In this document: piece after piece, positions 10,661 to 34,379 of the stretch | Layout of the letters: each line of letters starts with the position of its first letter | Position numbering within the stretch: the stretch's first letter is position 1 | Virus record (IMG/VR): IMGVR_UViG_2703718837_000002 | Source: a virus | Lineage: Duplodnaviria > Heunggongvirae > Uroviricota > Caudoviricetes | Direction: 5' to 3' (one strand) | Length of the DNA: 38,688 nt | Notes under the pieces: generated by a model | What the model saw: only the letters and a program-made list of their open reading frames with translations | Told to the model about the DNA's origin: nothing | Database searches by the model: none | Made by a program: the position numbers and the translations under genes

Positions 10661-10693
10661 ATTGCTCTAATAAATTTGATTTATTAGAGCAAA
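10661..10693 (+). promoter_or_regulatory. C1 operator, perfect 17-mer with an overlapping inverted partial copy
   Basis: ATTGCTCTAATAAATTT at 10661-10677, then TGATTTATTAGAGCAAA at 10677-10693. Confidence 0.75.
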
Positions 10694-10861
10694 TAACCTA
10701 CCATCGAACACGGCTCTATTGATCTCATCGTCGTTCAGGCTTATAGTTCCACCGTCGTAGCAAATTCTGCGACCAGGTTTGACAGCCTGAATACGAATGC
10801 GGACAACCGCAGATTTCCGATATTGCGGTATTTTTGTGTCCGTAAACCACGTTACGCCCGA

Positions 10862-10944
10862 ATTATGGTGGGGCGTGATGGGGAGGCTTCGGCCTGCTGG
10901 TTTCATTCGTGCCAGTCTGTCAACCCTGTCACGTCCTGCCACCT
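10862..10944 (+). ncRNA. c4-like antisense RNA (module A); boundaries approximate
   Basis: UUCG-capped hairpin at 10883-10896, then CATTCGT (10904-10910) and CTGTCAA (10917-10923), exactly complementary to ACGAATG and TTGACAG at the icd-like RBS (10946-10985) and at an upstream site (10778-10799). Confidence 0.5.
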
Positions 10945-10993
10945 GTTTGACAGCGGGTCGCAGGTTGTTAAACCTACGAATGAGGCCGTAACT

Positions 10994-11215
10994 ATGGTTA
11001 ATGCCAATCCTTGCGCACGCCCTGAATTTATCTGGCGCTTTTACTCCTGCCAGAAACGTCACTATCACTTCGTAATTGCACCGACAGAAGATGAGGCCCG
11101 CTCTCTGCTTCCTGACGCTCCCTGCATTTTCTCTGCCCGCTTTTCCACTGATTCGCGCAACTCTCTCAGTTACTGGTGCCTCCCTGTTAACGCTTCTGCT
11201 CAGGAGGGACTATGA
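10994..11215 (+). CDS. Icd-like small protein (73 aa)
   Basis: ATG at 10994 preceded by GAGG; ATGA overlap with the Ant-like gene; FIWRF...EDEAR..L...C.F.AR pattern resembles Icd-like proteins; the ORF track's longer 10823 start is rejected. Confidence 0.6.
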   Translation: MVNANPCARPEFIWRFYSCQKRHYHFVIAPTEDEARSLLPDAPCIFSARFSTDSRNSLSYWCLPVNASAQEGL

Positions 11216-12303
11216 GAACGTCATTAGTCACCCGTGAAGAAATGATTGAGGCAATTGAACAGCACACATCCTGTATCAGTACCAGGGATATACCGGGTGT
11301 TATTGCCAACTACTTCATGATCACCAAACAACTTTACCGGAGAAAGGACAAGAACGCGGTTCACCGCATTCTGTTGTCTGATATCCGCGAATACCTGCTC
11401 GAACAGGGTCGTCTTGATTATGCAACCGTAACCGCCGAAGCACGCAAGGAGGCACACAGGATGAAAGCAACTAATGTTAAATCAGAAAAAATTACCCTGC
11501 CTTCAGTTCAGGAATCCGAGCTGGTGGTTGTTCAGAATCAGTCTGATGAAATTCCCGTTCTGGAATGGCTGGGAGTGCGTGTCGTAACGACCGAAACTCT
11601 TGCTAGAGGGTATGGTACCGATGAAGCCAATATTCGTAAAAATTTGTCTCGCAACTCCGATCGCTTTGAAGAAGGCAAGCATTACTATCTCTTAACCGGT
11701 TCAAAGTTAAAGGAATTTAAAAGGCTAGTGACTATTAGTCACTTGGTTAGCAAATATACAAGTCAGGTAATTCTCTGGACAGAGCGCGGCGCTGCACGCA
11801 TGTCTAAGATCGTGGACACAAATGAAGCATGGGCATTCTTTGAAAAACTGGAAGACAGCTACTTCCGACAAAAAGAACAGCAACCGGTCTCAATTCCCCA
11901 GACGCTTCCAGAAGCTCTGCGCCTGGCTGCCGAGTTGGCAGAACAGAAAATGCAACTGGAACAACAGCTGGTGGCCGCAGCCCCTAAAGTCGATTTTGCC
12001 GACCGGGTATCAGTGGCTAAGGGGATCCTGATTGGAAATTTTGCAAAGGTTGTTGGACTTAAGCAAAACGCGCTGTTTGCCTGGTTACGGGAGAACGGCA
12101 TCCTGATTGCGTCCGGCGGACGTAAAAATGTACCGTTTCAGCAGTACATAAACGCCGGGTATTTCACGGTGAAAGAAGTGGTGCTGGATGATGAAGATGG
12201 CTACCAGATACGGTTGACGCCCCAGCTAACGGGGAAAGGCCAGCAGTGGCTGACGCGTAAACTGCTCGATGCAGGTTTATTAAAGCCTGTAGCGGCTGAG
12301 TGA
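11212..12303 (+). CDS. Ant-like antirepressor paralog A (363 aa), Bro-N/ORF6N-like centre and KilA-C/Ant-like C-terminus
   Basis: Translationally coupled to the icd-like ORF as in P1 immI; about 90 percent identical to paralogs B and C outside a divergent central patch. Confidence 0.7.
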   Translation: MRTSLVTREEMIEAIEQHTSCISTRDIPGVIANYFMITKQLYRRKDKNAVHRILLSDIREYLLEQGRLDYATVTAEARKEAHRMKATNVKSEKITLPSVQESELVVVQNQSDEIPVLEWLGVRVVTTETLARGYGTDEANIRKNLSRNSDRFEEGKHYYLLTGSKLKEFKRLVTISHLVSKYTSQVILWTERGAARMSKIVDTNEAWAFFEKLEDSYFRQKEQQPVSIPQTLPEALRLAAELAEQKMQLEQQLVAAAPKVDFADRVSVAKGILIGNFAKVVGLKQNALFAWLRENGILIASGGRKNVPFQQYINAGYFTVKEVVLDDEDGYQIRLTPQLTGKGQQWLTRKLLDAGLLKPVAAE

Positions 12304-24144: not shown

Positions 24145-24161
24145 ATTGCTCTAATAAATTT
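24145..24161 (+). promoter_or_regulatory. C1 operator (perfect 17-mer)
   Basis: ATTGCTCTAATAAATTT. Confidence 0.75.
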
Positions 24162-24346
24162 GATTTATTGAAACAAATAAACTACTATTGGACGCCAGAC
24201 TATTGATCTTCCTGTTGTTCAGGCTTATAGTTCCTACGTCATAGCAAATTCTGCGACCGGGTTTAGCAGCCTGAATGTACATGCGGACAACCGCAGATTT
24301 CCGATATTGCGGTATTTTTATGTCCGTAAAACCGCGTTACGCCCGA

Positions 24347-24429
24347 ATTATGGTGGGGCGTGATGGGGAGGCTTCGGCCTGCTGGTTTCATGTACGCCAG
24401 TCTGCTAACCCCGTCACGTCCTGCCACCT
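24347..24429 (+). ncRNA. c4-like antisense RNA (module B); boundaries approximate
   Basis: Same scaffold as A, but core elements CATGTAC (24389-24395) and CTGCTAA (24403-24409) complement GTACATG and TTAGCAG at the B target sites (24262-24283 and 24431-24470). Confidence 0.5.
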
Positions 24430-24478
24430 GTTTAGCAGCGGGTAGCAGGTTGTTAAACCTGTACATGAGGCCGTAACT

Positions 24479-24700
24479 ATGGTTAATGCCAATCCTTGCG
24501 CACGCCCTGAATTTATCTGGCGCTTCTATTCTTGTCAAAAACGTCACTATCACTTCGTTATCGCACCAACAGAAGATGAGGCACGTTCTCAGCTTCCGGA
24601 TGCTCCCTGCATTTTCTCCGCCCGCTTTTCTACCGATTCGCGCAATTCTCTCAGTTACTGGTGCCTCCCTGTTAACGCTTCGGCTCAGGAGGGGCTATGA
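24479..24700 (+). CDS. Icd-like small protein (73 aa)
   Basis: Paralog of the module A icd-like ORF; GAGG RBS overlapped by the antisense target. Confidence 0.6.
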   Translation: MVNANPCARPEFIWRFYSCQKRHYHFVIAPTEDEARSQLPDAPCIFSARFSTDSRNSLSYWCLPVNASAQEGL

Positions 24701-25809
24701 GAACGTCATTAGTCACCCGTGAAGAGATGATCGAGGCAATTGAACAGCACACTGCCTGTATCAGTACCAGGGATATACCAGGTGTTATTGCCAACTACTT
24801 CATGATCACCAAACAACTTTACCGGAGAAAGGACAAGAACGCGGTTCACCGCATTCTGCTAACCGATATCCGTGAATACCTGCTCGAACAGGGTCATCTG
24901 AATTATGCAACCGTCGCAGCCGAAGCACGCAAGGAGGCACACAGAATGAAAGCAACTAACGTTAAATCAGAAAAAATTCATGCACCTTCAGTTCAGGAAT
25001 CAGAGCTGGTGGTTGTTCAGAATCAGCCTGATGAAATTCCCGTTCTGGAATGGCAGGGAGTACGTGTCGTGACAACCGAAACTCTTGCTAGAGGGTATGG
25101 GACCGAAACTAATAACATCAAAGTTAACTATACGCGTAATGCTGATCGCTTTGAGGAAGGTAAACATTACTTTCTACTAACTGGTTCAAAATTAAAAGAA
25201 TTGAAGGACAAGGTTACTCAAAGTAACTTAGTCGCACCGCGAGCAAAGCACCTCACTCTCTGGACGGAACGCGGCGCAGCCCGCCACGCTAAAATGATCG
25301 AAACCGATCAGGCATGGGCATTCTTTGAAAAACTGGAAGACAGCTACTTCCGACAAAAAGAACAGCAACCGGTTGCAATCCCCCAGACGCTTCCAGAAGC
25401 CCTGCGCCTGGCTGCCGAACTGGCTGAACAAAAGCAACTTCTGGAACAGAAAGCCCACCAGCTAAATCAGCAGCTGGTGGCCGCAGCCCCCAAAGTCGAT
25501 TTTGCCGACCGGGTATCAGTGGCCAAGGGGATCCTGATTGGGAATTTTGCAAAGGTTGTTGGACTTAAGCAAAACGCGCTGTTTGCCTGGTTACGGGAGA
25601 ACGGCATCCTGATAGCGTCCGGCGGACGTAAAAATGTGCCGTTCCAGCAATACATCAACGCCGGGTATTTTTCTGTGAAAGAAGTGGTGCTGGATGATGA
25701 AGATGGCTATCAGATACGACTGACGCCCCAGTTAACGGGGAAAGGCCAGCAGTGGTTGACGCGTAAACTGCTCGATGCTGGCTTGTTAAAACCGGTGGCG
25801 GCTGAGTGA
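24697..25809 (+). CDS. Ant-like antirepressor paralog B (370 aa)
   Basis: ATGA-coupled to the icd-like ORF; Bro-N/KilA-C-like architecture. Confidence 0.7.
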   Translation: MRTSLVTREEMIEAIEQHTACISTRDIPGVIANYFMITKQLYRRKDKNAVHRILLTDIREYLLEQGHLNYATVAAEARKEAHRMKATNVKSEKIHAPSVQESELVVVQNQPDEIPVLEWQGVRVVTTETLARGYGTETNNIKVNYTRNADRFEEGKHYFLLTGSKLKELKDKVTQSNLVAPRAKHLTLWTERGAARHAKMIETDQAWAFFEKLEDSYFRQKEQQPVAIPQTLPEALRLAAELAEQKQLLEQKAHQLNQQLVAAAPKVDFADRVSVAKGILIGNFAKVVGLKQNALFAWLRENGILIASGGRKNVPFQQYINAGYFSVKEVVLDDEDGYQIRLTPQLTGKGQQWLTRKLLDAGLLKPVAAE

Positions 25810-28587: not shown

Positions 28588-29439
28588 ATGATAAATTATG
28601 TCTACGGCGAACAACTGTACCAGGAGTTCGTCAGCTTCAGGGATCTCTTTCTAAAAAAAGCTGTTGCACGCGCCCAACACGTTGATGCCGCCAGCGACGG
28701 TCGTCCTGTTCGCCCGGTTGTCGTTCTGCCGTTCAAAGAAACGGACAGCATTCAGGCTGAAATTGATAAATGGACTTTAATGGCGCGGGAACTGGAACAG
28801 TACCCAGACCTCAATATCCCAAAGACTATTTTATATCCAGTGCCTAACATCCTTCGCGGTGTGCGTAAGGTTACAACTTATCAGACAGAAGCTGTGAACA
28901 GCGTCAACATGACCGCTGGCCGCATTATTCATCTGATTGATAAGGACATTCGCATCCAGAAAAGCGCGGGGATCAATGAGCACAGTGCGAAATACATAGA
29001 GAACCTGGAAGCAACAAAAGAGCTAATGAAGCAGTACCCGGAGGATGAAAAATTCCGTATGCGTGTACACGGCTTTAGCGAAACAATGCTGCGCGTCCAT
29101 TACATTTCCAGTAGCCCTAACTACAATGATGGTAAATCAGTTAGTTACCATGTGCCGCTGTGTGGTGTGTTTATCTGCGATGAAACTCTCCGTGATGGAA
29201 TCATCATCAACGGTGAATTCGAGAAAGCAAAATTTAGCCTTTATGACTCTATAGAACCGATCATCTGCGACCGCTGGCCGCAGGCAAAAATATATCGCCT
29301 GGCAGATATTGAAAATGTAAAAAAACAAATTGCCATCACTCGCGAAGAGAAAAAGGTCAAATCAGCCGCATCAGTTACGCGCAGCCGTAAAACCAAGAAG
29401 GGGCAGCCAGTAAACGACAACCCCGAAAGCGCGCAATAA
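28588..29439 (+). CDS. c1: C1 repressor of lytic functions (283 aa)
   Basis: Starts MINYVYGEQLYQEFVSFRDLF, 283 aa, matching P1 C1; its operators are scattered across the window. Confidence 0.93.
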   Translation: MINYVYGEQLYQEFVSFRDLFLKKAVARAQHVDAASDGRPVRPVVVLPFKETDSIQAEIDKWTLMARELEQYPDLNIPKTILYPVPNILRGVRKVTTYQTEAVNSVNMTAGRIIHLIDKDIRIQKSAGINEHSAKYIENLEATKELMKQYPEDEKFRMRVHGFSETMLRVHYISSSPNYNDGKSVSYHVPLCGVFICDETLRDGIIINGEFEKAKFSLYDSIEPIICDRWPQAKIYRLADIENVKKQIAITREEKKVKSAASVTRSRKTKKGQPVNDNPESAQ

Positions 29440-29443
29440 ATTA

Positions 29444-29470
29444 TGCCCGGCATCAACCGGGCATTCTTCC
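29444..29470 (+). terminator. Intrinsic terminator after c1
   Basis: Stem TGCCCGG/CCGGGCA with 6-nt loop followed by a T-rich tract. Confidence 0.5.
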
Positions 29471-29471
29471 A

Positions 29472-30584
29472 TTATTCAGCCGCCACCGGTTTTAACAAGC
29501 CAGCATCGAGCAGTTTACGCGTCAACCACTGCTGGCCTTTACCCGTTAATTGGGGCGTCAGCCGTATCTGGTAGCCATTTTCATCATCCAGCACCACTTC
29601 TTTCACCGTGAAATACCCCGCGTTGATGTACTGCTGGAACGGCACATTTTTACGTCCACCGGACGCTATCAGGATGCCGTTCTCCCGTAACCAGACAAAC
29701 AGCGCGTTTTGCTTAAGTCCAACAACCTTTGCAAAATTCCCAATCAGGATCCCTTTAGCTACTGATACCCGGTCGGCAAAATCGACTTTAGGAGCGGCGG
29801 CCACCAGCTGCTGATTTAGCTGGTGGGCTTTCTGTTCCAGAAGTTGCTTTTGTTCAGCCAGCTCGGCAGCCAGACGCAGGGCTTCTGGAAGCGTCTGGGG
29901 GATTGCGATCGGTTGCTGTTCTTTTTGTCGGAAGTAGTTGTCTTCCAGTTTTTCAAAGAATGCCCATGCTTCATTTGTGTCCACGATCTTAGACATGCGT
30001 GCAGCGCCGCGCTCTGTCCAGAGTGTAAGGCTTCTGGCGTTCTTACCAACAGAGTAACTTCCGGTTACTCTGTTCTTAAATTCTCTTAATTTTAAACCAG
30101 TTAGAAGAAAGTAATGCTTACCTTCTTCAAAGCGGTCAAGGTTGCGAGACAAATTGTTGCGAATATTGGCTTCATCGACCCCATACCCTCTAGCAAGAGT
30201 TTCGGTTGTCACGACACGTACTCCCTGCCATTCCAGAACGGGAATTTCATCCGGCTGATTCTGAACAACCACCAGCTCTGATTCCTGAACTGAAGGTGCA
30301 TAAATTTTTTCTGATTTAACGTTAGTTGCTTTCATTCTGTGTGCCTCCTTGCGTGCTTCGGCTGCGACGGTTGCGTAATTCAGATGACCCTGTTCGAGCA
30401 GGTATTCACGGATATCGGTTAGCAGAATGCGGTGAACCGCGTGTTTGTCCTTTCTCCGGTAAAGTTGTTTGGTGATCATGAAGTAGTTGGCAATAACGCC
30501 CGGTATATCCTTGGTACTGATACAGGCAGTGTGCTGTTCAATTGCCTCGATCATCTCTTCACGGGTGACTAATGACGTTCTCAT
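29472..30584 (-). CDS. Ant-like antirepressor paralog C (370 aa)
   Basis: ATGA-coupled to the icd-like ORF; full-length paralog of A and B. Confidence 0.7.
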   Translation of the reverse strand: MRTSLVTREEMIEAIEQHTACISTKDIPGVIANYFMITKQLYRRKDKHAVHRILLTDIREYLLEQGHLNYATVAAEARKEAHRMKATNVKSEKIYAPSVQESELVVVQNQPDEIPVLEWQGVRVVTTETLARGYGVDEANIRNNLSRNLDRFEEGKHYFLLTGLKLREFKNRVTGSYSVGKNARSLTLWTERGAARMSKIVDTNEAWAFFEKLEDNYFRQKEQQPIAIPQTLPEALRLAAELAEQKQLLEQKAHQLNQQLVAAAPKVDFADRVSVAKGILIGNFAKVVGLKQNALFVWLRENGILIASGGRKNVPFQQYINAGYFTVKEVVLDDENGYQIRLTPQLTGKGQQWLTRKLLDAGLLKPVAAE

Positions 30585-30802
30585 AGTCCCTCCTGAGCAG
30601 AAGCGTTAACAGGGAGGCACCAGTAACTGAGAGAGTTGCGCGAATCAGTGGAAAAGCGGGCAGAGAAAATGCAGGGAGCGTCAGGAAGCTGAGAACGGGC
30701 CTCATCTTCTGTCGGTGCAATAACGAAGTGATAGTGACGTTTCTGGCAGGAATAGAAGCGCCAGATGAATTCAGGATGAGTTGGGGTAGGGACAGTAGCC
30801 AT
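30581..30802 (-). CDS. Icd-like small protein (73 aa) with a distinct N-terminus (MATVPTPTHPEFIW...)
   Basis: AAAGGAGG RBS; first nine residues differ from A and B, the rest is conserved. Confidence 0.6.
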   Translation of the reverse strand: MATVPTPTHPEFIWRFYSCQKRHYHFVIAPTEDEARSQLPDAPCIFSARFSTDSRNSLSYWCLPVNASAQEGL

Positions 30803-30857
30803 AATGGCAGCCTCCTTTGACTAAGTTAAGGAGCTACCGCGTGAGGTCTCAATCTCA

Positions 30858-30930
30858 ATGGCGGTAGCACTGACTGGGTTGAGACTACCGGCGTCAAAGG
30901 GAACCGGCCTGCCTTTCGGCAGCCCAGCCA
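30858..30930 (-). ncRNA. c4-like antisense RNA (module C); boundaries approximate
   Basis: Minus-strand GAAA-capped hairpin (30908-30925), then CCCTTTGAC (30893-30901) and GTCTCAA (30879-30885), complementary to GTCAAAGG(AGG) at the RBS (30811-30821) and TTGAGAC (within 30845-30859); the same two target motifs recur upstream at 31018-31044. Confidence 0.4.
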
Positions 30931-31142
30931 GCACTACCATTGATTTCGGAGCTAAACGCTACGTATGGCTGTGCGATGGCATGACACAAAAAAAAGACGC
31001 TTTCGGCGTCTGTGTCGCCTTTGACATTATTCGGGGTCTCAATCCCGGCACCCGTTTTAATGAGGTGCCTGATAAGCATAAACCGAAAATGCCTCAAGGC
31101 GCAAGAGGTCAGGTTCAATGTAACATCGGCAGTTAAAAAACA

Positions 31143-31160
31143 CAATTTATTAGAGCAAAT
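31143..31160 (-). promoter_or_regulatory. C1 operator-like site at the 5' edge of module C
   Basis: Minus strand reads ATTTGCTCTAATAAATTG. Confidence 0.55.
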
Positions 31161-31162
31161 AT

Positions 31163-32647
31163 TCATTCATTAAGCCATGCCAGAGCTTCATCAACCTGCG
31201 CTTCGTCTTCGACGCTAAGCACTTCATCCTGGGGAACATAATCCGCCAGCATAGCGAAACAATATGTATCCCAATGGTCTGGTGAGTGCAGGTTGAGTTT
31301 TTTCTTCATATCCTCCTTACTCATCACCTTCCATTGACCTGCGGAGTTAATCCCTACAGGGATTTTCGACGCTTCCTCAATAGTTTCATTACCCTTATCC
31401 AGTCTCATACGACCAGATTTTACGGCCTCTGCGGCTTGAACGTTGGCATAAGCACGTTTATCAAAGTACAGGCTCTTATCTTCACGGCTATGCATCTTTT
31501 TACCCCAGCGTATGCGCTGTACGGTAATACCATAATACTCGTACATCAGATCCGCCGTTGCTTTACCCAGGCCATCGCCGTCTATCGCTATGGTGATATT
31601 TGGGAATCGCTCAGGATTACATTCTGCGAAAATTTTGGCGGCAAGCTGCGTTTCTGTAACGTCTGTGTATTCCAGCATTCGATAGTTGATTACACGGCGT
31701 TTATTTCGCTGGCCGGACACCATCATGATATTGATAACGGACTTATCCCGTCCCGTACCACCAGCAACGTCCACACATGCAAGCCAGCCCCATCCTTTTG
31801 CAATCTTGACTTTCCGCCGCGTTGCACGTTCAACCTCATCACGTCCAAGAAGGAAGCCATCCTGTGATTTAGGGAATAGGCCGCGTACCTTAATCATGTA
31901 CATAGGGTTATCACGCCCGCCGTACTCCGCCAGCTTCATTTTGATAAATGCTGGCGTTACCAACGGTGATTCCTCACTGTTAAGCGTGATCGCCGTATAA
32001 ACGCCATCAGGGTTACCAGGACGCTTGGCCAGTTTATGGTGTGTATCGTAGAAATAGCCGCTTGGGCGTGTAGGCTGTGACAGCAATAAGATGCGGTTAT
32101 CCTGTCCGGTAAGAGCACCGGTGATGATACCGAAAGCTCTATCACTGACACCGGAGGCTTCATCGATAATATACAGAAGATGATCTGCGTGTTCACCGGC
32201 GAGAGCTTCTTCACTTCCCAGACGAAAGCCCTTCGGTACTACAGTCCATACACCTTTACCAGTAACCTCATAGAAAGCGGTTTCTGTCAGAACAAAATAA
32301 TCAGCAAGCCATGGAAAACGGCTGGTGGCAGTAGCCCAGTTTATCTTGATGTACTTGAATATACCGGTCATTACCTGCTGAATTTTGTTCGCAACGATAA
32401 TGGCGCGGGCACCGGGATACATGATTATGAACAACATGATCATGATAGAAGTCATGTCTGATTTCCCGGTACCGTGACCAGACGAAACAGATGTCTTGCT
32501 ACCCTGTTCCTGCACAGACTCAATAATCAGATCCTGCTGCCAGGTAGGTGTTTTGCCGAACAAAACATCAGCGGCCGCAATCCAGTCATAACGATATAGC
32601 GCCACCAGCTCGCGCCAACGTGGGTCCGTTACGCAACTTCTGGCCAT
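31163..32647 (-). CDS. pacB: PacB, terminase large subunit (494 aa)
   Basis: 494-aa ORF overlapping the pacA stop; size and position as in P1. Confidence 0.75.
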
Positions 32648-33840
32648 TAATCATCATCCCCGTACAGTTTGCGGGTAACTTCTTCGTCTTCCTCCTCGTC
32701 TTCGTCCAGATCCTGTTCAAGCCATGCTTCGTTTGATATGCCTTCCGCATCGACATCACCATAACCACCTGTATCGACGATATCGGCAATTTCTTCTCTA
32801 CGATGCTCAATCCACAATGCGGCATCAGCGCGGCGGCTGGCGGCCCGTTCTCGCGCGATTTTATCCAGATCTTCAAGTGATGGAGCGCCAGATGCTGTTT
32901 GGTTTTCCTCATCATCGGTATTGGTCTTAGGAGCACGCAGATCGGCTTTGATTTGCTCCAGCATCAGGGGCGGCACTTTCCCTCCATGCGCCTCGATGAA
33001 TTCAGCCGCTTCCAGAACTGACCAGTTATTTTCACGCTTTCGTTCGTATGCCAACTTAACAATGCCAGCTTGCCCCATAGATAAAGCGTGCTTTTCCGCC
33101 TCCCGGCTTTCTTTTCGATAGTTATTCCGGATGCTGTAAATGGTGTTGATCAGGCTGCTTATCTGCGCGGAACAGCTGTTTAGCATGCTCGCGATACGGT
33201 ATTCAGGCGGAGTACCTTCATCATCGTCTTTTTTCTGATCGCGCATTTCCTGCACCAGGCGAATACACGTATCCCTGGCGTTCTCCAGCATAAGGAGATG
33301 AGAAAGAGACTTTTCAAGAAGAGTTGTTTCCAGAACATCGGCCCCGGACCGACGCAACATAGCGCGCGCGGCCTTCCGCGCTTCAACGTTATCTATCAGG
33401 TAATCGCCAGCTTCGAATTCAAAGCGTTCACCATCATCATCCAGGGTGTCGCGTTCCAGGCGATCACGTAAGGTCCGGTGGGCGCGGGTGATCACGTCAT
33501 GATCATCAGAACGATCATTTATGCGCTTATTTTGGCGCTTCGCATTCTCGACTGCGGCACTGACAACGGCATTAACTCTCTGTTTTTCCGCTATTTCAGC
33601 CGCAATATGATCACCTGCATGTTGATCATTAGAGTGATCAATGATCATGCTTTTTAGTGGCTTCCTGACTGGCTTATTTGGCTTGCGGCTGTCCGCAGTC
33701 CTGGTGTCTTCTTTGAAGGCACGGAGATAACGACGTGCGGTATTAGGGTTAAGATTAAACTCGGCGGCATACTGTGCGATGGTGTAACCACCATCTCGCG
33801 CCAGGCGAGCAAAATTCTTCTTGTGATCGTCCCAGGTCAC
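32647..33840 (-). CDS. pacA: PacA, terminase small subunit / pac-recognition protein (397 aa)
   Basis: 397-aa ORF containing the pac hexamer clusters near its 5' end. Confidence 0.8.
33490..33646. other. pac: pac packaging site: two clusters of GATC-containing hexamers inside pacA
   Basis: TGATCA/TGATCG-type elements at 33490, 33501, 33513 (three) and 33609, 33624, 33636, 33643 (four), i.e. the 3 + 4 arrangement of P1 pac. Confidence 0.75.
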
Positions 33841-33926: not shown

Positions 33927-34379
33927 TCAGATACGTGCGGATGTGGCATTACCGTAATGACGGTGCTGACGGGCCACCTTATTGAAAAGTTGACGCGCCA
34001 TTACCCAAGGCTGATGCTCCCGGCGTTCCTTTTCGTCCTGCGTCATATAGAGTTCGTTCTGGAGTTTTTCATCAAACCGGCGCGGCGCGCGGCTGCGGCG
34101 AAAGAATTCAGGATTCAGAGAGTGGATCTGAAATCTACGTGGGCGTGTACTGTCATCAATCAAAACAGACGAATACTTAGACACAGCGATAGCCTTTAAG
34201 CGCAGATAAACGTCGCGCTTATCGACATCCAGATGCGGGTATTCCTTTTCAAGGATTGCTGCGAGTTCTTTCGCTGATAGAAGAGACTTAGTGCGGATCA
34301 TGTAATCCGCAATCTCATACGATGTTATTCGTGAGTGATTTATTTCCATGAAGTGGCGTCCCTGCCAGTTAAGTAACAT
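33927..34379 (-). CDS. lpa: Lpa-like late promoter activator (about 140-150 aa)
   Basis: Position between pdcB and pacA with a C1 operator-like site upstream; true start may be the internal MEINHS. Confidence 0.55.
   Translation of the reverse strand: MLLNWQGRHFMEINHSRITSYEIADYMIRTKSLLSAKELAAILEKEYPHLDVDKRDVYLRLKAIAVSKYSSVLIDDSTRPRRFQIHSLNPEFFRRSRAPRRFDEKLQNELYMTQDEKERREHQPWVMARQLFNKVARQHRHYGNATSARI

What the first reader, a model, noticed from the sequence alone, without database searches (positions are those of the whole stretch)
30803..31160. Module C uses a third, unrelated antisense specificity on the same architectural plan
Upstream of the module C icd-like gene the sequence is unrelated to A and B, yet the layout recurs. 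The operator is at 31143-31160. A sense site carries GATTGAGACC and GTCAAAGG (31018-31044). A GAAA-capped hairpin precedes CCCTTTGAC and GTCTCAA (30879-30901). The RBS-proximal site carries TTGAGAC and GTCAAAGGAGG (30811-30859), complementary to that core. Module C also has a terminator-like hairpin with U8 (minus strand, 30988-31010) between the first sense site and the antisense core. The icd-like N-terminus is correspondingly different.
Basis: partly seen in the sequence, partly recalled or inferred. Interest (0 to 1): 0.75.

Follow-up and report, generated by a model that had tools for sequence, protein, structure and literature searches.

The report
Third antisense-RNA antirepressor switch, own specificity
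This stretch of a P1-like phage-plasmid is a third copy of the well-known C4 antisense-RNA switch that keeps an antirepressor gene silent; it has its own recognition sequences and the IsrK/P4 style of leader, so it is a real but ordinary member of a known family.

Summary
Rfam finds a full-length C4 antisense RNA at 30944-30857 (75.4 bits, cut-off 45). It also finds an isrK-type leader at 31068-30990 (59.8 bits, cut-off 50) that carries the upstream sense sites and the U8 terminator.

- **Complementarity.** The C4 loop b' (CCCUUUGAC) and junction a' (GUCUCAA) are exactly complementary to a1/b1 in the leader and to a2/b2. Site b2 (GUCAAAGGAGG) overlaps the Shine-Dalgarno sequence of icd. icd overlaps ant in ATGA.
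- **Conservation in homologues.** Among 87 distinct homologous modules there are 34 a/b combinations, and almost all keep all three copies complementary. On 27 representatives, 98.5-100% of cells pair and 12 of 15 pairs show compensatory change; slid controls pair at 28-48%.
- **Alleles.** P1-like plasmids and phages D6 and JL22 with the same scaffold carry all four combinations of two a and two b alleles. Each change appears in all three copies.
- **Relation to modules A and B.** The leader is about 45% identical to A and B. Identity jumps to 92-100% from about codon 10 of icd onward.

The architecture matches P1/P7 immI, P4 seqA-CI-seqC and Gifsy-1 IsrK-STnc1160. Near-identical modules exist in RCS47 and in hundreds of plasmids. 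Verdict: observation confirmed and interpretation supported, though "unrelated" overstates it. This is a new member of a known kind.

The parts
31143..31159 (-). C1-operator-like site, TTTGCTCTAATAAATTG, immediately after the pacB stop codon
   Evidence: It has 2 mismatches to the consensus ATTGCTCTAATAAATTT. The window holds 12 such sites against 0.22 expected. The site is conserved in plasmid homologues even where the flanks differ. A c1 gene is present at 28588-29439 (NF041318, 610.9 bits). Binding by C1 is inferred.
31075..31104 (-). Putative leader promoter: TTGCGC, 18-nt spacer, TATGCT. It would start transcription near 31068.
   Evidence: This is inferred only. The strict sigma-70 scan found nothing here. 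In alignment A1 the TATGCT hexamer falls in the same columns as TACACT and TATAGT of lambdoid and P4-like homologues, just upstream of the isrK 5' end. A second weak candidate overlaps the operator: TTGTGT, 17-nt spacer, TACATT at 31145-31117.
30990..31068 (-). IsrK/seqA-type leader RNA with two 5' hairpins, site a1 in the loop of hairpin 2, site b1 single-stranded, and a 3' terminator
   Evidence: Rfam isrK RF01394 scores 59.8 bits against a cut-off of 50. The c4-a1b1 model reaches only 22.5 bits here.
31036..31042 (-). Sense site a1, UUGAGAC, in the loop of CGGG-AUUGAGAC-CCCG
   Evidence: It is exactly complementary to a'. Pairing between a1 and a' covaries across homologues.
31018..31025 (-). 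Sense site b1, GUCAAAGG
   Evidence: It is exactly complementary to b'. It covaries with b' across homologues.
30988..31011 (-). Intrinsic terminator, AGACGCCGAAAGCGUCU followed by U8
   Evidence: The terminator scan reports it. The stem and U-run columns are invariant in 27 homologues. The homologous IsrK terminator is partly read through in Gifsy-1 (PMC4825925).
30857..30944 (-). C4 antisense RNA gene. It has a 16-bp closing stem, a GAAA-capped hairpin 1 at 30922-30909, and hairpin 2 carrying b'. Site a' lies in the 3' junction.
   Evidence: Rfam C4 RF01695 scores 75.4 bits against a cut-off of 45, matching the full model. The minimum free energy is -46.5 kcal/mol, z = -5.3. 100% of cells in the three C4 helices are paired, and 15 of its 26 pairs have compensatory changes.
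30893..30901 (-). Recognition loop b', CCCUUUGAC
   Evidence: It sits in the loop of hairpin 2 and is complementary to b1 and b2.
30879..30885 (-). Recognition segment a', GUCUCAA, in the single-stranded junction
   Evidence: It is complementary to a1 and a2.
30846..30852 (-). Target site a2, UUGAGAC
   Evidence: Exact complement of a'. 100% of cells are paired across 27 homologues.
30811..30821 (-). Target site b2 merged with the Shine-Dalgarno sequence, GUCAAAGGAGG, 8 nt before the icd AUG
   Evidence: Shown directly by the sequence.
30581..30802 (-). icd-like gene, 73 aa. The first 9 codons are of the D6/IsrK type and the rest is of the P1 type.
   Evidence: NF033153 phage_ICD_like scores 49.8 bits. 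The identity profile places the mosaic junction within the first ~10 codons of icd, about 30775-30790.
29472..30584 (-). Antirepressor gene (ant), 370 aa. Its start codon overlaps the icd stop in ATGA.
   Evidence: Pfam ORF6N plus ANT (KilAC domain), E 1e-30. The nucleotide sequence is roughly 84-100% identical in most 50-column windows to the ant genes of modules A and B, with short divergent patches. The ATGA overlap is read.

Best explanation
Module C is a complete C4-type antisense-RNA immunity cassette of the IsrK/P4/D6 sub-type. It controls an icd-ant (antirepressor) operon in a P1-like phage-plasmid.

Proposed sequence of events:

1. Transcription starts just downstream of pacB, next to a C1-operator-like site (inferred).
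2. The first ~80 nt form an IsrK-like leader. It displays a1 (UUGAGAC) in a hairpin loop and b1 (GUCAAAGG) in a single-stranded stretch, and it ends in an intrinsic terminator. Most transcripts should stop there as a short RNA, and a fraction read through (by homology with Gifsy-1 IsrK).
3. Read-through transcripts contain the 88-nt C4 RNA. It is presumably excised as in P1, where RNase P makes the 5' cut (my knowledge of the P1 literature).
4. C4 pairs through loop b' and junction a' with a2 and b2 on the same or another transcript.
5. Because b2 runs into the Shine-Dalgarno sequence, icd translation is blocked.
6. Because ant overlaps icd in ATGA, ant is silenced with it. In P1 and P4 this works through loss of translational coupling and Rho-dependent polarity (my knowledge of that literature).

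Specificity lies entirely in the 7 + 8 nt of a and b. These differ from modules A and B, so the three cassettes should not cross-regulate.

The short leader RNA carrying a1/b1 most likely acts as a competitor that titrates C4 and thereby activates icd-ant, as shown for IsrK.

What is shown: the sequence elements, the structures, the complementarity and their co-evolution. What is inferred: the promoters, processing, read-through, C1 control and the direction of the leader's effect.
For: - **Family matches.** C4 and isrK match at full length above Rfam's curated cut-offs.
- **Structure.** The C4 fold is exceptionally stable. The stems of the leader and of C4 covary: 99% of cells paired and 21 of 42 pairs with changes on both sides.
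- **Intermolecular pairing.** For a1/b1 with C4, 98.5% of cells pair and 12 of 15 pairs are compensatory. For C4 with a2/b2 the figures are 100% and 12 of 15. Slid controls pair at 28-48%.
- **Diversity.** 87 distinct modules gave 34 a/b combinations. Among the 29 that aligned without indels there are 10 a' alleles and 18 b' alleles. Cognate sites pair at a mean of 14.7 of 15 positions against 9.8 of 15 for non-cognate sites.
- **Microevolution.** On the same scaffold, P1-like plasmids and phages D6 and JL22 show all four combinations of a {UUGAGAC, UUGGAAC} and b {GUCAAAGG, GCAAAAGG}. Each change is present in all three copies.
- **Experimental support in a homologue.** Gifsy-1 has isrK followed by a C4 match of 69 bits. 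The published compensatory mutants G28A/C162U and G31A/C159U (PMC4825925) map exactly onto a1:a' pairs. The same paper shows terminator read-through, a processed ~80-nt RNA (STnc1160), and trans-activation of orf45-anrP translation by short IsrK.
- **Reference architecture.** The P1 record annotates Oc4, a1, b1, c4, a2 and b2 in the same order.
- **Coding parts.** Icd, Ant and C1 are identified by profile matches.
Against: - There are no transcript, processing or reporter data for this element.
- The strict sigma-70 scan finds no promoter in 30700-31300.
- The operator has 2 mismatches, and it is single rather than paired as in module A.
- The role of a1/b1 is labelled only 'putative' in the P1 record. 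The IsrK authors explained activation by refolding of the mRNA, not by titration of a C4-like RNA.
- One non-cognate duplex, C4-C on the module A target, is predicted at -17.1 kcal/mol. That calculation includes stem bases that are not free to pair.
Confidence: 0.87

Rival explanations
1. The primary output is the P4/SfV type. Pairing of the C4/CI-like RNA with the upstream (seqA-like) and downstream (seqC-like) sites mainly causes premature transcription termination, including at the leader terminator. The leader sites would then serve negative autoregulation rather than acting as an activating decoy.
For: - The module C scaffold is closer to P4 CI than to P1 c4: 75% identity to P4 over 161 nt.
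- P4 seqA is hit by the isrK model and P4 CI by the C4 model.
- P4 has the same GGAGGCUGCCAUCAUG junction.
- The IsrK authors raise this possibility for STnc1160.
- SfV and phage Ayreon records label the homologous stretch 'immunity region'.
Against: - In Gifsy-1, constitutive STnc1160 did not reduce IsrK-mediated growth arrest; the effect was even more pronounced.
- Site b2 sits on the Shine-Dalgarno sequence. To my knowledge, termination in P1 and P4 is itself a consequence of blocked translation followed by Rho action. If so, this is a downstream consequence rather than a truly different mechanism.
Confidence: 0.3
2. Module C is an inert duplicate. It would be a recombination by-product between pacB and c1, with no regulatory role in this element because modules A and B already supply Icd-Ant control.
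For: - The icd-ant body is 92-100% identical to modules A and B over icd and mostly 84-100% over ant, so the protein output looks redundant.
- No consensus promoter was found.
Against: - All ORFs are intact.
- All three copies of both sites are perfectly complementary.
- Allelic variants at this very locus always change all three copies together, which requires selection on pairing.
- The module occurs in 433 plasmid records.
- The operator is conserved.
Confidence: 0.05
3. The stretch encodes small proteins rather than RNAs. The candidates are the 39-aa 'ash family protein' ORF (30821-30940, minus strand) that RefSeq annotates in homologues, and the 92-aa plus-strand ORF at 30858-31136.
For: RefSeq (PGAP) annotates an 'ash family protein' CDS over the homologous stretch in many plasmids. 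The ORF is open in the window.
Against: - Neither the RefSeq 'ash' ORF of homologue L141 (NCBIfam) nor the window's 92-aa ORF (Pfam) matches any family.
- The region evolves by paired compensatory changes in RNA stems and loops. That pattern fits an RNA and does not fit a conserved peptide.
- A full-length C4 covariance-model match covers the stretch.
Confidence: 0.03

Closest known systems
P1/P7 immI operon (Oc4 operator, a1/b1, c4 antisense RNA, a2/b2, icd, ant1/2)
   Same: - The order of parts is the same: C1 operator, a1/b1, C4, a2/b2 with b2 at the icd ribosome-binding site, and icd-ant overlap (P1 record).
- The same Rfam C4 family is matched.
- From about codon 10 of icd onward, module C is mostly 84-100% identical (92-100% over icd) to the P1-type modules A and B.
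- Heteroimmunity arises from a few base changes in a and b, as between P1 and P7.
   Different: - The leader and C4 scaffold are only about 45% identical to the P1 type.
- The recognition sequences differ. Module C has UUGAGAC and GUCAAAGG. P1 has UUGACAG and GUUAGUG. P7 has UUAGCAG and GAUUGUG.
- The leader matches isrK at 59.8 bits but c4-a1b1 at only 22.5 bits, and it ends in a strong GC hairpin plus U8 terminator.
- It lies between pacB and c1, not next to sim/kilA/repL.
Gifsy-1 IsrK - STnc1160 - orf45 - anrP locus (Hershko-Shalev et al. 2016, PMC4825925)
   Same: - The arrangement is the same: an isrK-type leader with terminator, then a C4-family RNA, then a Shine-Dalgarno-overlapping target, a small ORF and a coupled antirepressor.
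- The published compensatory mutations fall on a1:a'.
- This is the only member of the leader sub-type with direct experimental data on read-through, processing and trans-activation.
   Different: - The a/b alleles differ. Gifsy-1 has UUGGCGU and UCACCG.
- Gifsy-1 is a lambdoid prophage with no C1 operator.
- Its downstream small ORF is orf45, not an Icd homologue.
- Hfq binding is reported for IsrK and is untested here.
- The paper does not name the downstream RNA as C4.
Satellite phage P4 immunity (seqA - CI RNA/seqB - seqC), and the homologous stretches labelled 'immunity region' in the SfV and phage Ayreon records
   Same: - P4 seqA is matched by isrK and CI by C4.
- P4 shares 75% identity with module C over C4 plus the target.
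- The GGAGGCUGCCAU(C/U)AUGGCUAC junction is identical.
   Different: - The output of P4 is described as immunity through premature transcription termination of the replication operon, not control of an antirepressor (and my own knowledge).
- There is no C1 operator.
- The spacer between leader and CI is 107 nt, against 45 nt here.
Phage D6 immI-like region and the pacB-adjacent module of RCS47, JL22 and 673R5
   Same: - RCS47 is 99% identical over the whole leader.
- JL22 is 97% identical over 29400-31300 and sits in the same position between pacB and c1.
- D6 is 90-93% identical from the leader promoter to icd.
   Different: - D6 and JL22 carry b = GCAAAAGG instead of GUCAAAGG, changed in b1, b' and b2 alike.
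- 673R5 has a different scaffold and different alleles at the same locus.
- D6 has a Rha/KilA-type antirepressor body rather than the P1-type Ant.

Membership tests
Rfam RF01695 C4 antisense RNA | Covariance-model score at or above the curated gathering score, over the full model | tested here: met
   75.4 bits against 45, model positions 1-87 of 87, at 30944-30857 on the minus strand.
Rfam RF01695 C4 antisense RNA | Long closing stem enclosing two hairpins, with b' in the loop of hairpin 2 and a' in the 3' single-stranded junction | tested here: met
   The minimum-free-energy structure reproduces this: -46.5 kcal/mol, z = -5.3. The three helices are 100% paired across 27 homologues, and 15 of 26 pairs have changes on both sides.
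Rfam RF01695 C4 antisense RNA | Complementary target sites a2/b2 downstream on the same strand, with b2 at the ribosome-binding site of the next gene | tested here: met
   UUGAGAC at 30852-30846 and GUCAAAGGAGG at 30821-30811, 8 nt before the icd AUG. 100% of cells pair across homologues and 12 of 15 pairs are compensatory.
Rfam RF01695 C4 antisense RNA | Excised from a longer precursor (RNase P at the 5' end in P1) and accumulating as a stable RNA of about 77-88 nt | not testable with these tools
   No expression data exist for this element. A homologous ~80-nt processed RNA, STnc1160, is reported in Gifsy-1.
Rfam RF01394 isrK | Covariance-model score at or above the gathering score; two 5' hairpins plus a Rho-independent terminator | tested here: met
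   59.8 bits against 50, model positions 1-77 of 77, at 31068-30990. The terminator scan reports the hairpin plus T8. The stems covary.
Rfam RF01394 isrK | Hfq binding, partial terminator read-through, and trans-activation of the downstream ORF | not testable with these tools
   Shown only for Gifsy-1 IsrK (PMC4825925).
Rfam RF03163 c4-a1b1 (P1-type leader) | Covariance-model score at or above the gathering score | tested here: not met
   22.5 bits against 46.7 at 31081-31028. Modules A and B reach 57.1 and 47.5 bits. The model does overlap isrK hits in Gifsy-1, P4, APSE-1 and Kp4865, so the two leader models describe related elements.
P1-type immI operon | C1-controlled operator at the promoter of the c4-icd-ant transcript | tested here: inconclusive
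   A site with 2 mismatches to the 17-bp consensus lies at 31143-31159. The window is strongly enriched for such sites, with 12 against 0.22 expected. A c1 gene is present. No promoter passes the scan, and binding was not tested.
P1-type immI operon | An icd gene followed by a translationally coupled antirepressor gene | tested here: met
   Icd-like NF033153 scores 49.8 bits. Ant carries ORF6N plus ANT/KilAC. The ATGA overlap lies at 30584-30581.

The most novel reading that the evidence does not exclude
The a and b sites may act as a two-part combinatorial code that is reshuffled among phages. I saw 10 a' alleles and 18 b' alleles, and all four combinations of two alleles each on one scaffold.

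P1-like phage-plasmids would then deliberately stack up to three mutually orthogonal C4 cassettes on near-identical, gene-converting icd-ant bodies. A resident prophage would silence the antirepressors of several immunity types of superinfecting relatives at once. Each cassette's terminated IsrK-like leader would serve as an anti-antisense sponge that sets its induction threshold.

Under this reading, IsrK and the P1 a1/b1 sites are the same device, and IsrK's published 'sRNA acting on its own mRNA' is in fact titration of a C4 RNA.
Probability: 0.3. Interest if true: 0.6.

Novelty: new member of a known kind. Interest (0 to 1): 0.33.

Why it matters
The mechanism is a textbook one for P1/P7, P4 and Gifsy-1, so module C does not change how we think antisense immunity works. 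It is useful in three ways.

1. It shows that one phage-plasmid can carry three orthogonal C4 switches. Their alleles (A, B and C) match none of P1, P7 or D6, which bears on heteroimmunity and prophage cross-induction among the many P1-like resistance plasmids.
2. The family-wide triple covariation gives a ready-made set of orthogonal antisense/target pairs.
3. It links Rfam isrK to the C4 clan and re-reads the IsrK mutational data as a1:a' pairing.

It also flags a recurrent annotation error: the C4 gene is called a protein, 'ash family protein', in RefSeq.

Tried and rejected
- **Promoter scan.** The strict sigma-70 scan of 30700-31300 found no promoter. The promoters in the report are therefore only positional inferences from alignment A1.
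- **D6-scaffold pattern.** A scan of viral contigs with N-masked loops on the D6 scaffold returned nothing. The allele series on that scaffold came from six plasmid loci instead.
- **Protein families.** Pfam gave nothing for Icd, the 92-aa plus-strand ORF or C1, and NCBIfam gave nothing for the 'ash' ORF of homologue L141. NCBIfam then identified Icd and C1.
- **Papers not held.** The D6 genome paper (PMC5800970) and the P1 genome paper (PMC523184) are not in the library. What the D6 authors said about c4 could not be checked.
- **JL22 paper.** It does not discuss immunity, icd or ant.
- **Rejected reading: inert duplicate.** Rejected because of three-way compensatory allele changes at this very locus.
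- **Rejected reading: protein-coding.** Rejected because of the RNA-type covariation.
Full report
**What the window is.** The window is part of a P1-like (Punavirus) phage-plasmid.
- pacA lies at 32647-33840 and pacB at 31163-32647, both on the minus strand. They are followed by the finding's region.
- Next come a 73-aa icd-like gene (30581-30802, minus) and a 370-aa antirepressor gene (29472-30584, minus).
- A c1 repressor gene lies convergent to them at 28588-29439 (plus).
- Megablast places the whole 29400-31300 stretch in phages JL22 (97%), RCS47 (96%) and 673R5 (89%). The core 30740-31069 is 93% identical to the immI-like region of phage D6.
- 89 plasmid records, mostly Escherichia coli and E. 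albertii, cover at least 80% of window 8001-33000.

**Check of the observation.**
- An Rfam scan of the whole window at curated thresholds gives three full-length C4 antisense RNAs: 10861-10946 (plus), 24346-24431 (plus) and 30944-30857 (minus). The last is module C, at 75.4 bits against a cut-off of 45.
- The P1-type leader model c4-a1b1 hits only modules A and B.
- In module C the upstream sense sites and the U8 hairpin are instead covered by isrK (31068-30990, 59.8 bits against 50). With relaxed thresholds c4-a1b1 reaches only 22.5 bits there.
- The terminator scan independently reports the hairpin at 31011-30995 plus T8.
- The C4 sequence folds to -46.5 kcal/mol (z = -5.3) into the family's structure: a closing stem, a GAAA-capped hairpin, and a second hairpin with CCCUUUGAC in its loop. 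GUCUCAA lies in the 3' junction.
- The C1-operator consensus ATTGCTCTAATAAATTT has 12 matches with at most 3 mismatches in the window, against 0.22 expected. The site at 31143-31159 has two mismatches.

**Anatomy on the minus strand.**
- Operator-like site: 31159-31143.
- Leader hairpins: from 31068.
- Site a1, UUGAGAC: 31042-31036, in the loop of CGGG...CCCG.
- Site b1, GUCAAAGG: 31025-31018.
- Terminator: 31011-30988.
- C4: 30944-30857, with b' at 30901-30893 and a' at 30885-30879.
- Site a2, UUGAGAC: 30852-30846.
- Site b2, GUCAAAGGAGG: 30821-30811, running into the Shine-Dalgarno sequence.
- icd AUG: 30802.
- The icd stop and the ant start overlap in ATGA at 30584-30581.

The P1 record annotates exactly the same order: Oc4, a1, b1, c4, a2, b2, icd, ant1/2.

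- A sensitive blastn of the leader against phages found 142 records: Stx phages, phiP27, APSE-1, P4 and a Klebsiella phage.
- All 16 loci fetched have isrK followed by C4. The a and b sites differ among them but always match within a module.
- A scan of viral contigs with the conserved junction GGAGGCTGCCATNATGGCTAC returned 120 stretches.
- Together these gave 87 distinct modules with 34 a/b combinations. Among the 29 that aligned without indels there are 10 a' alleles and 18 b' alleles. Nearly all are perfectly complementary at a1:a', b1:b', a2:a' and b2:b'. The few exceptions coincide with loop-length differences that shift the alignment.
- Cognate sites pair at a mean of 14.7 of 15 positions, against 9.8 of 15 for non-cognate sites.
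- On a 27-sequence alignment (A1), leader sites against C4 give 98.5% paired cells, with 12 of 15 pairs changed on both sides. Slid controls pair at 34-48%.
- C4 against a2/b2 gives 100% paired cells and 12 of 15 pairs. Slid controls pair at 28-43%.
- The intramolecular stems of leader and C4 are 99% paired, with 21 of 42 pairs compensatory.

**Microevolution on the module C scaffold.** Six plasmid loci were fetched. Five carry the same C4 scaffold as module C; four of those lie directly after the terminase (pacB) gene, and L145 lies elsewhere. Together with D6 and JL22 they show all four combinations of a {UUGAGAC, UUGGAAC} and b {GUCAAAGG, GCAAAAGG}.
- The window and L141 have UUGAGAC with GUCAAAGG.
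- L142 has UUGGAAC with GUCAAAGG.
- L143, L144 and L145 have UUGGAAC with GCAAAAGG.
- D6 and JL22 have UUGAGAC with GCAAAAGG.

In each case the change is present in the leader site, the C4 loop and the ribosome-binding-site-proximal site. The sixth locus (L146) and phage 673R5, both at the pacB locus, carry a different scaffold with a third allele pair. The window's allele is therefore not identical to D6's. It is one of a recombining set.

**Relation to modules A and B.**
- Aligned from operator to ant stop, module C is 36-58% identical to A and B until about 30790. From there it is 92-100% identical through the rest of icd and mostly 84-100% through ant, with short divergent patches. One stretch (about 30571-30671) is 100% identical to A.
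- The first nine Icd residues follow the leader type: MATVPTPTH, as in the MAT(I/V)P N-termini of the lambdoid homologues.
- Module C is therefore a D6/IsrK-type leader joined within the first ~10 codons to a P1-type icd-ant body.
- 'Unrelated' is right for specificity and for nucleotide identity. It is wrong for ancestry, since all three RNAs match one Rfam family.
- Modules A and B are themselves new alleles. A combines the P1 a-site (UUGACAG) with b = ACGAAUG. B combines the P7 a-site (UUAGCAG) with b = GUACAUG. P1 has b = GUUAGUG and P7 has GAUUGUG.
- Predicted cognate duplexes among A, B and C are -20.5 to -24.6 kcal/mol. Non-cognate duplexes are about -9 to -17 kcal/mol.

**Link to experiments.** The isrK family was defined on Gifsy-1.
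- Gifsy-1 has isrK at 34316-34240, a C4 match of 69 bits at 34214-34131, and a c4-a1b1 match overlapping isrK.
- Hershko-Shalev et al. (PMC4825925) showed four things. IsrK's terminator is partly read through. A ~80-nt RNA, STnc1160, is processed from the read-through transcript and is complementary to IsrK. The long mRNA is translationally inactive. Short IsrK in trans activates orf45-anrP (antirepressor) translation.
- Their compensatory mutants are G28A/C162U and G31A/C159U. Numbering from 34316, G28 and G31 lie in a1 (UUGGCGU, nt 26-32). C159 and C162 are the second and fifth bases of a' (ACGCCAA). These mutants therefore test a1:a' pairing directly.
- The paper compares IsrK with P4 SeqA but not with P1 c4. 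Rfam lists isrK outside the C4 clan.

**Mechanism.** I take module C to work as P1 immI does. C4 occludes the icd ribosome-binding site through a'/b' pairing with a2/b2. ant is silenced with icd through loss of translational coupling and, as I recall from the P1 and P4 literature, Rho-dependent polarity. Specificity is set by 15 nucleotides.
- The terminated leader RNA, by homology with IsrK, most likely titrates C4 and so activates the operon.
- The P4-style alternative, in which C4 pairing at the leader promotes termination as autoregulation, cannot be excluded.
- Promoters are not established. The strict scan finds none. TATGCT at 31080-31075 aligns with the -10 hexamers of homologues.
- C1 control is inferred from the operator-like site and the presence of c1.

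**Novelty.**
- The kind is fully known: P1/P7 c4, P4 CI, Gifsy-1 IsrK.
- One phage record even annotates 'isrK' and 'C4 antisense RNA' side by side.
- The same module, 99% identical, is in RCS47, and 433 plasmid records match the leader.
- Extra icd-ant copies in P1-like plasmids and a second c4/icd region in a D6-like plasmid have been noted in passing (PMC6906374; PMC6799933).
- I did not find in the searchable literature a description of this a/b allele, of three orthogonal cassettes in one genome, or of the combinatorial allele exchange.

Hence: a new member of a known kind, of modest interest.

Noticed in passing
window 10661-12303 (module A) and 24145-25809 (module B): Both P1-type C4 cassettes carry recognition alleles that match neither P1 nor P7. 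Module A combines the P1 a-site UUGACAG with a new b-site ACGAAUG. Module B combines the P7 a-site UUAGCAG with a new b-site GUACAUG. In each module the change appears in all three copies.
   Followed up: partly
window about 30571-30790 compared with 11000-11220 and 24490-24700: The icd and 5' ant sequence of module C is 92-100% identical to modules A and B, including a stretch 100% identical to A. The leaders are only about 45% identical. The junction lies within the first ~10 codons of icd. This suggests gene conversion between paralogous bodies while the leaders stay orthogonal.
   Followed up: partly
window 30821-30940 (-): A 39-aa ORF lies wholly inside the C4 RNA gene. RefSeq annotates it as 'ash family protein' in many homologous plasmids. 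The homologous L141 ORF matches no NCBIfam family, and the region evolves like an RNA, so this is probably a recurrent annotation artefact.
   Followed up: partly
L147 (Gifsy-1) 34131-34329; also L013, L014 and L016: The isrK model (no Rfam clan) and the c4-a1b1 model (clan CL00128) hit overlapping coordinates in Gifsy-1, P4, APSE-1 and Kp4865, always just upstream of a C4 match. The published IsrK compensatory mutants G28A/C162U and G31A/C159U map onto a1:a' pairs. isrK appears to belong with the C4 clan.
   Followed up: yes
L042 (7127 and 7783), L079 (7605 and 8261), L082 (10226 and 10882): Three lambdoid viral contigs carry two isrK-C4 modules 656 bp apart. The two modules of L042 and of L082 have different a' or b' alleles; L079's were not seen. 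Stacking of cassettes with different specificities is therefore not confined to P1-like elements.
   Followed up: no
window 30806-30838 (-): The target leader can fold so that CUCCUU pairs with the Shine-Dalgarno AAGGAG. The predicted energy is -17.6 kcal/mol but z is only -1.6. This recalls the ribosome-binding-site hairpin 'd-I' of the IsrK paper. The significance is weak.
   Followed up: no
window 9699, 10661, 10677, 15230, 24145, 25889, 26369, 27930, 28013, 28477, 31143, 34450: Twelve C1-operator-like sites with at most 3 mismatches occur, against 0.22 expected. Modules A and B have perfect consensus sites. Module A has a second, inverted site 16 bp away. Module C has a single site with 2 mismatches.
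   Followed up: partly
L002 (phage D6) 3676-3755 (-): A second, sub-threshold C4-like match (40.2 bits against 45) lies about 470 bp upstream of D6's main C4. This fits the report of a second c4/icd-like region in a D6-like plasmid.
   Followed up: no
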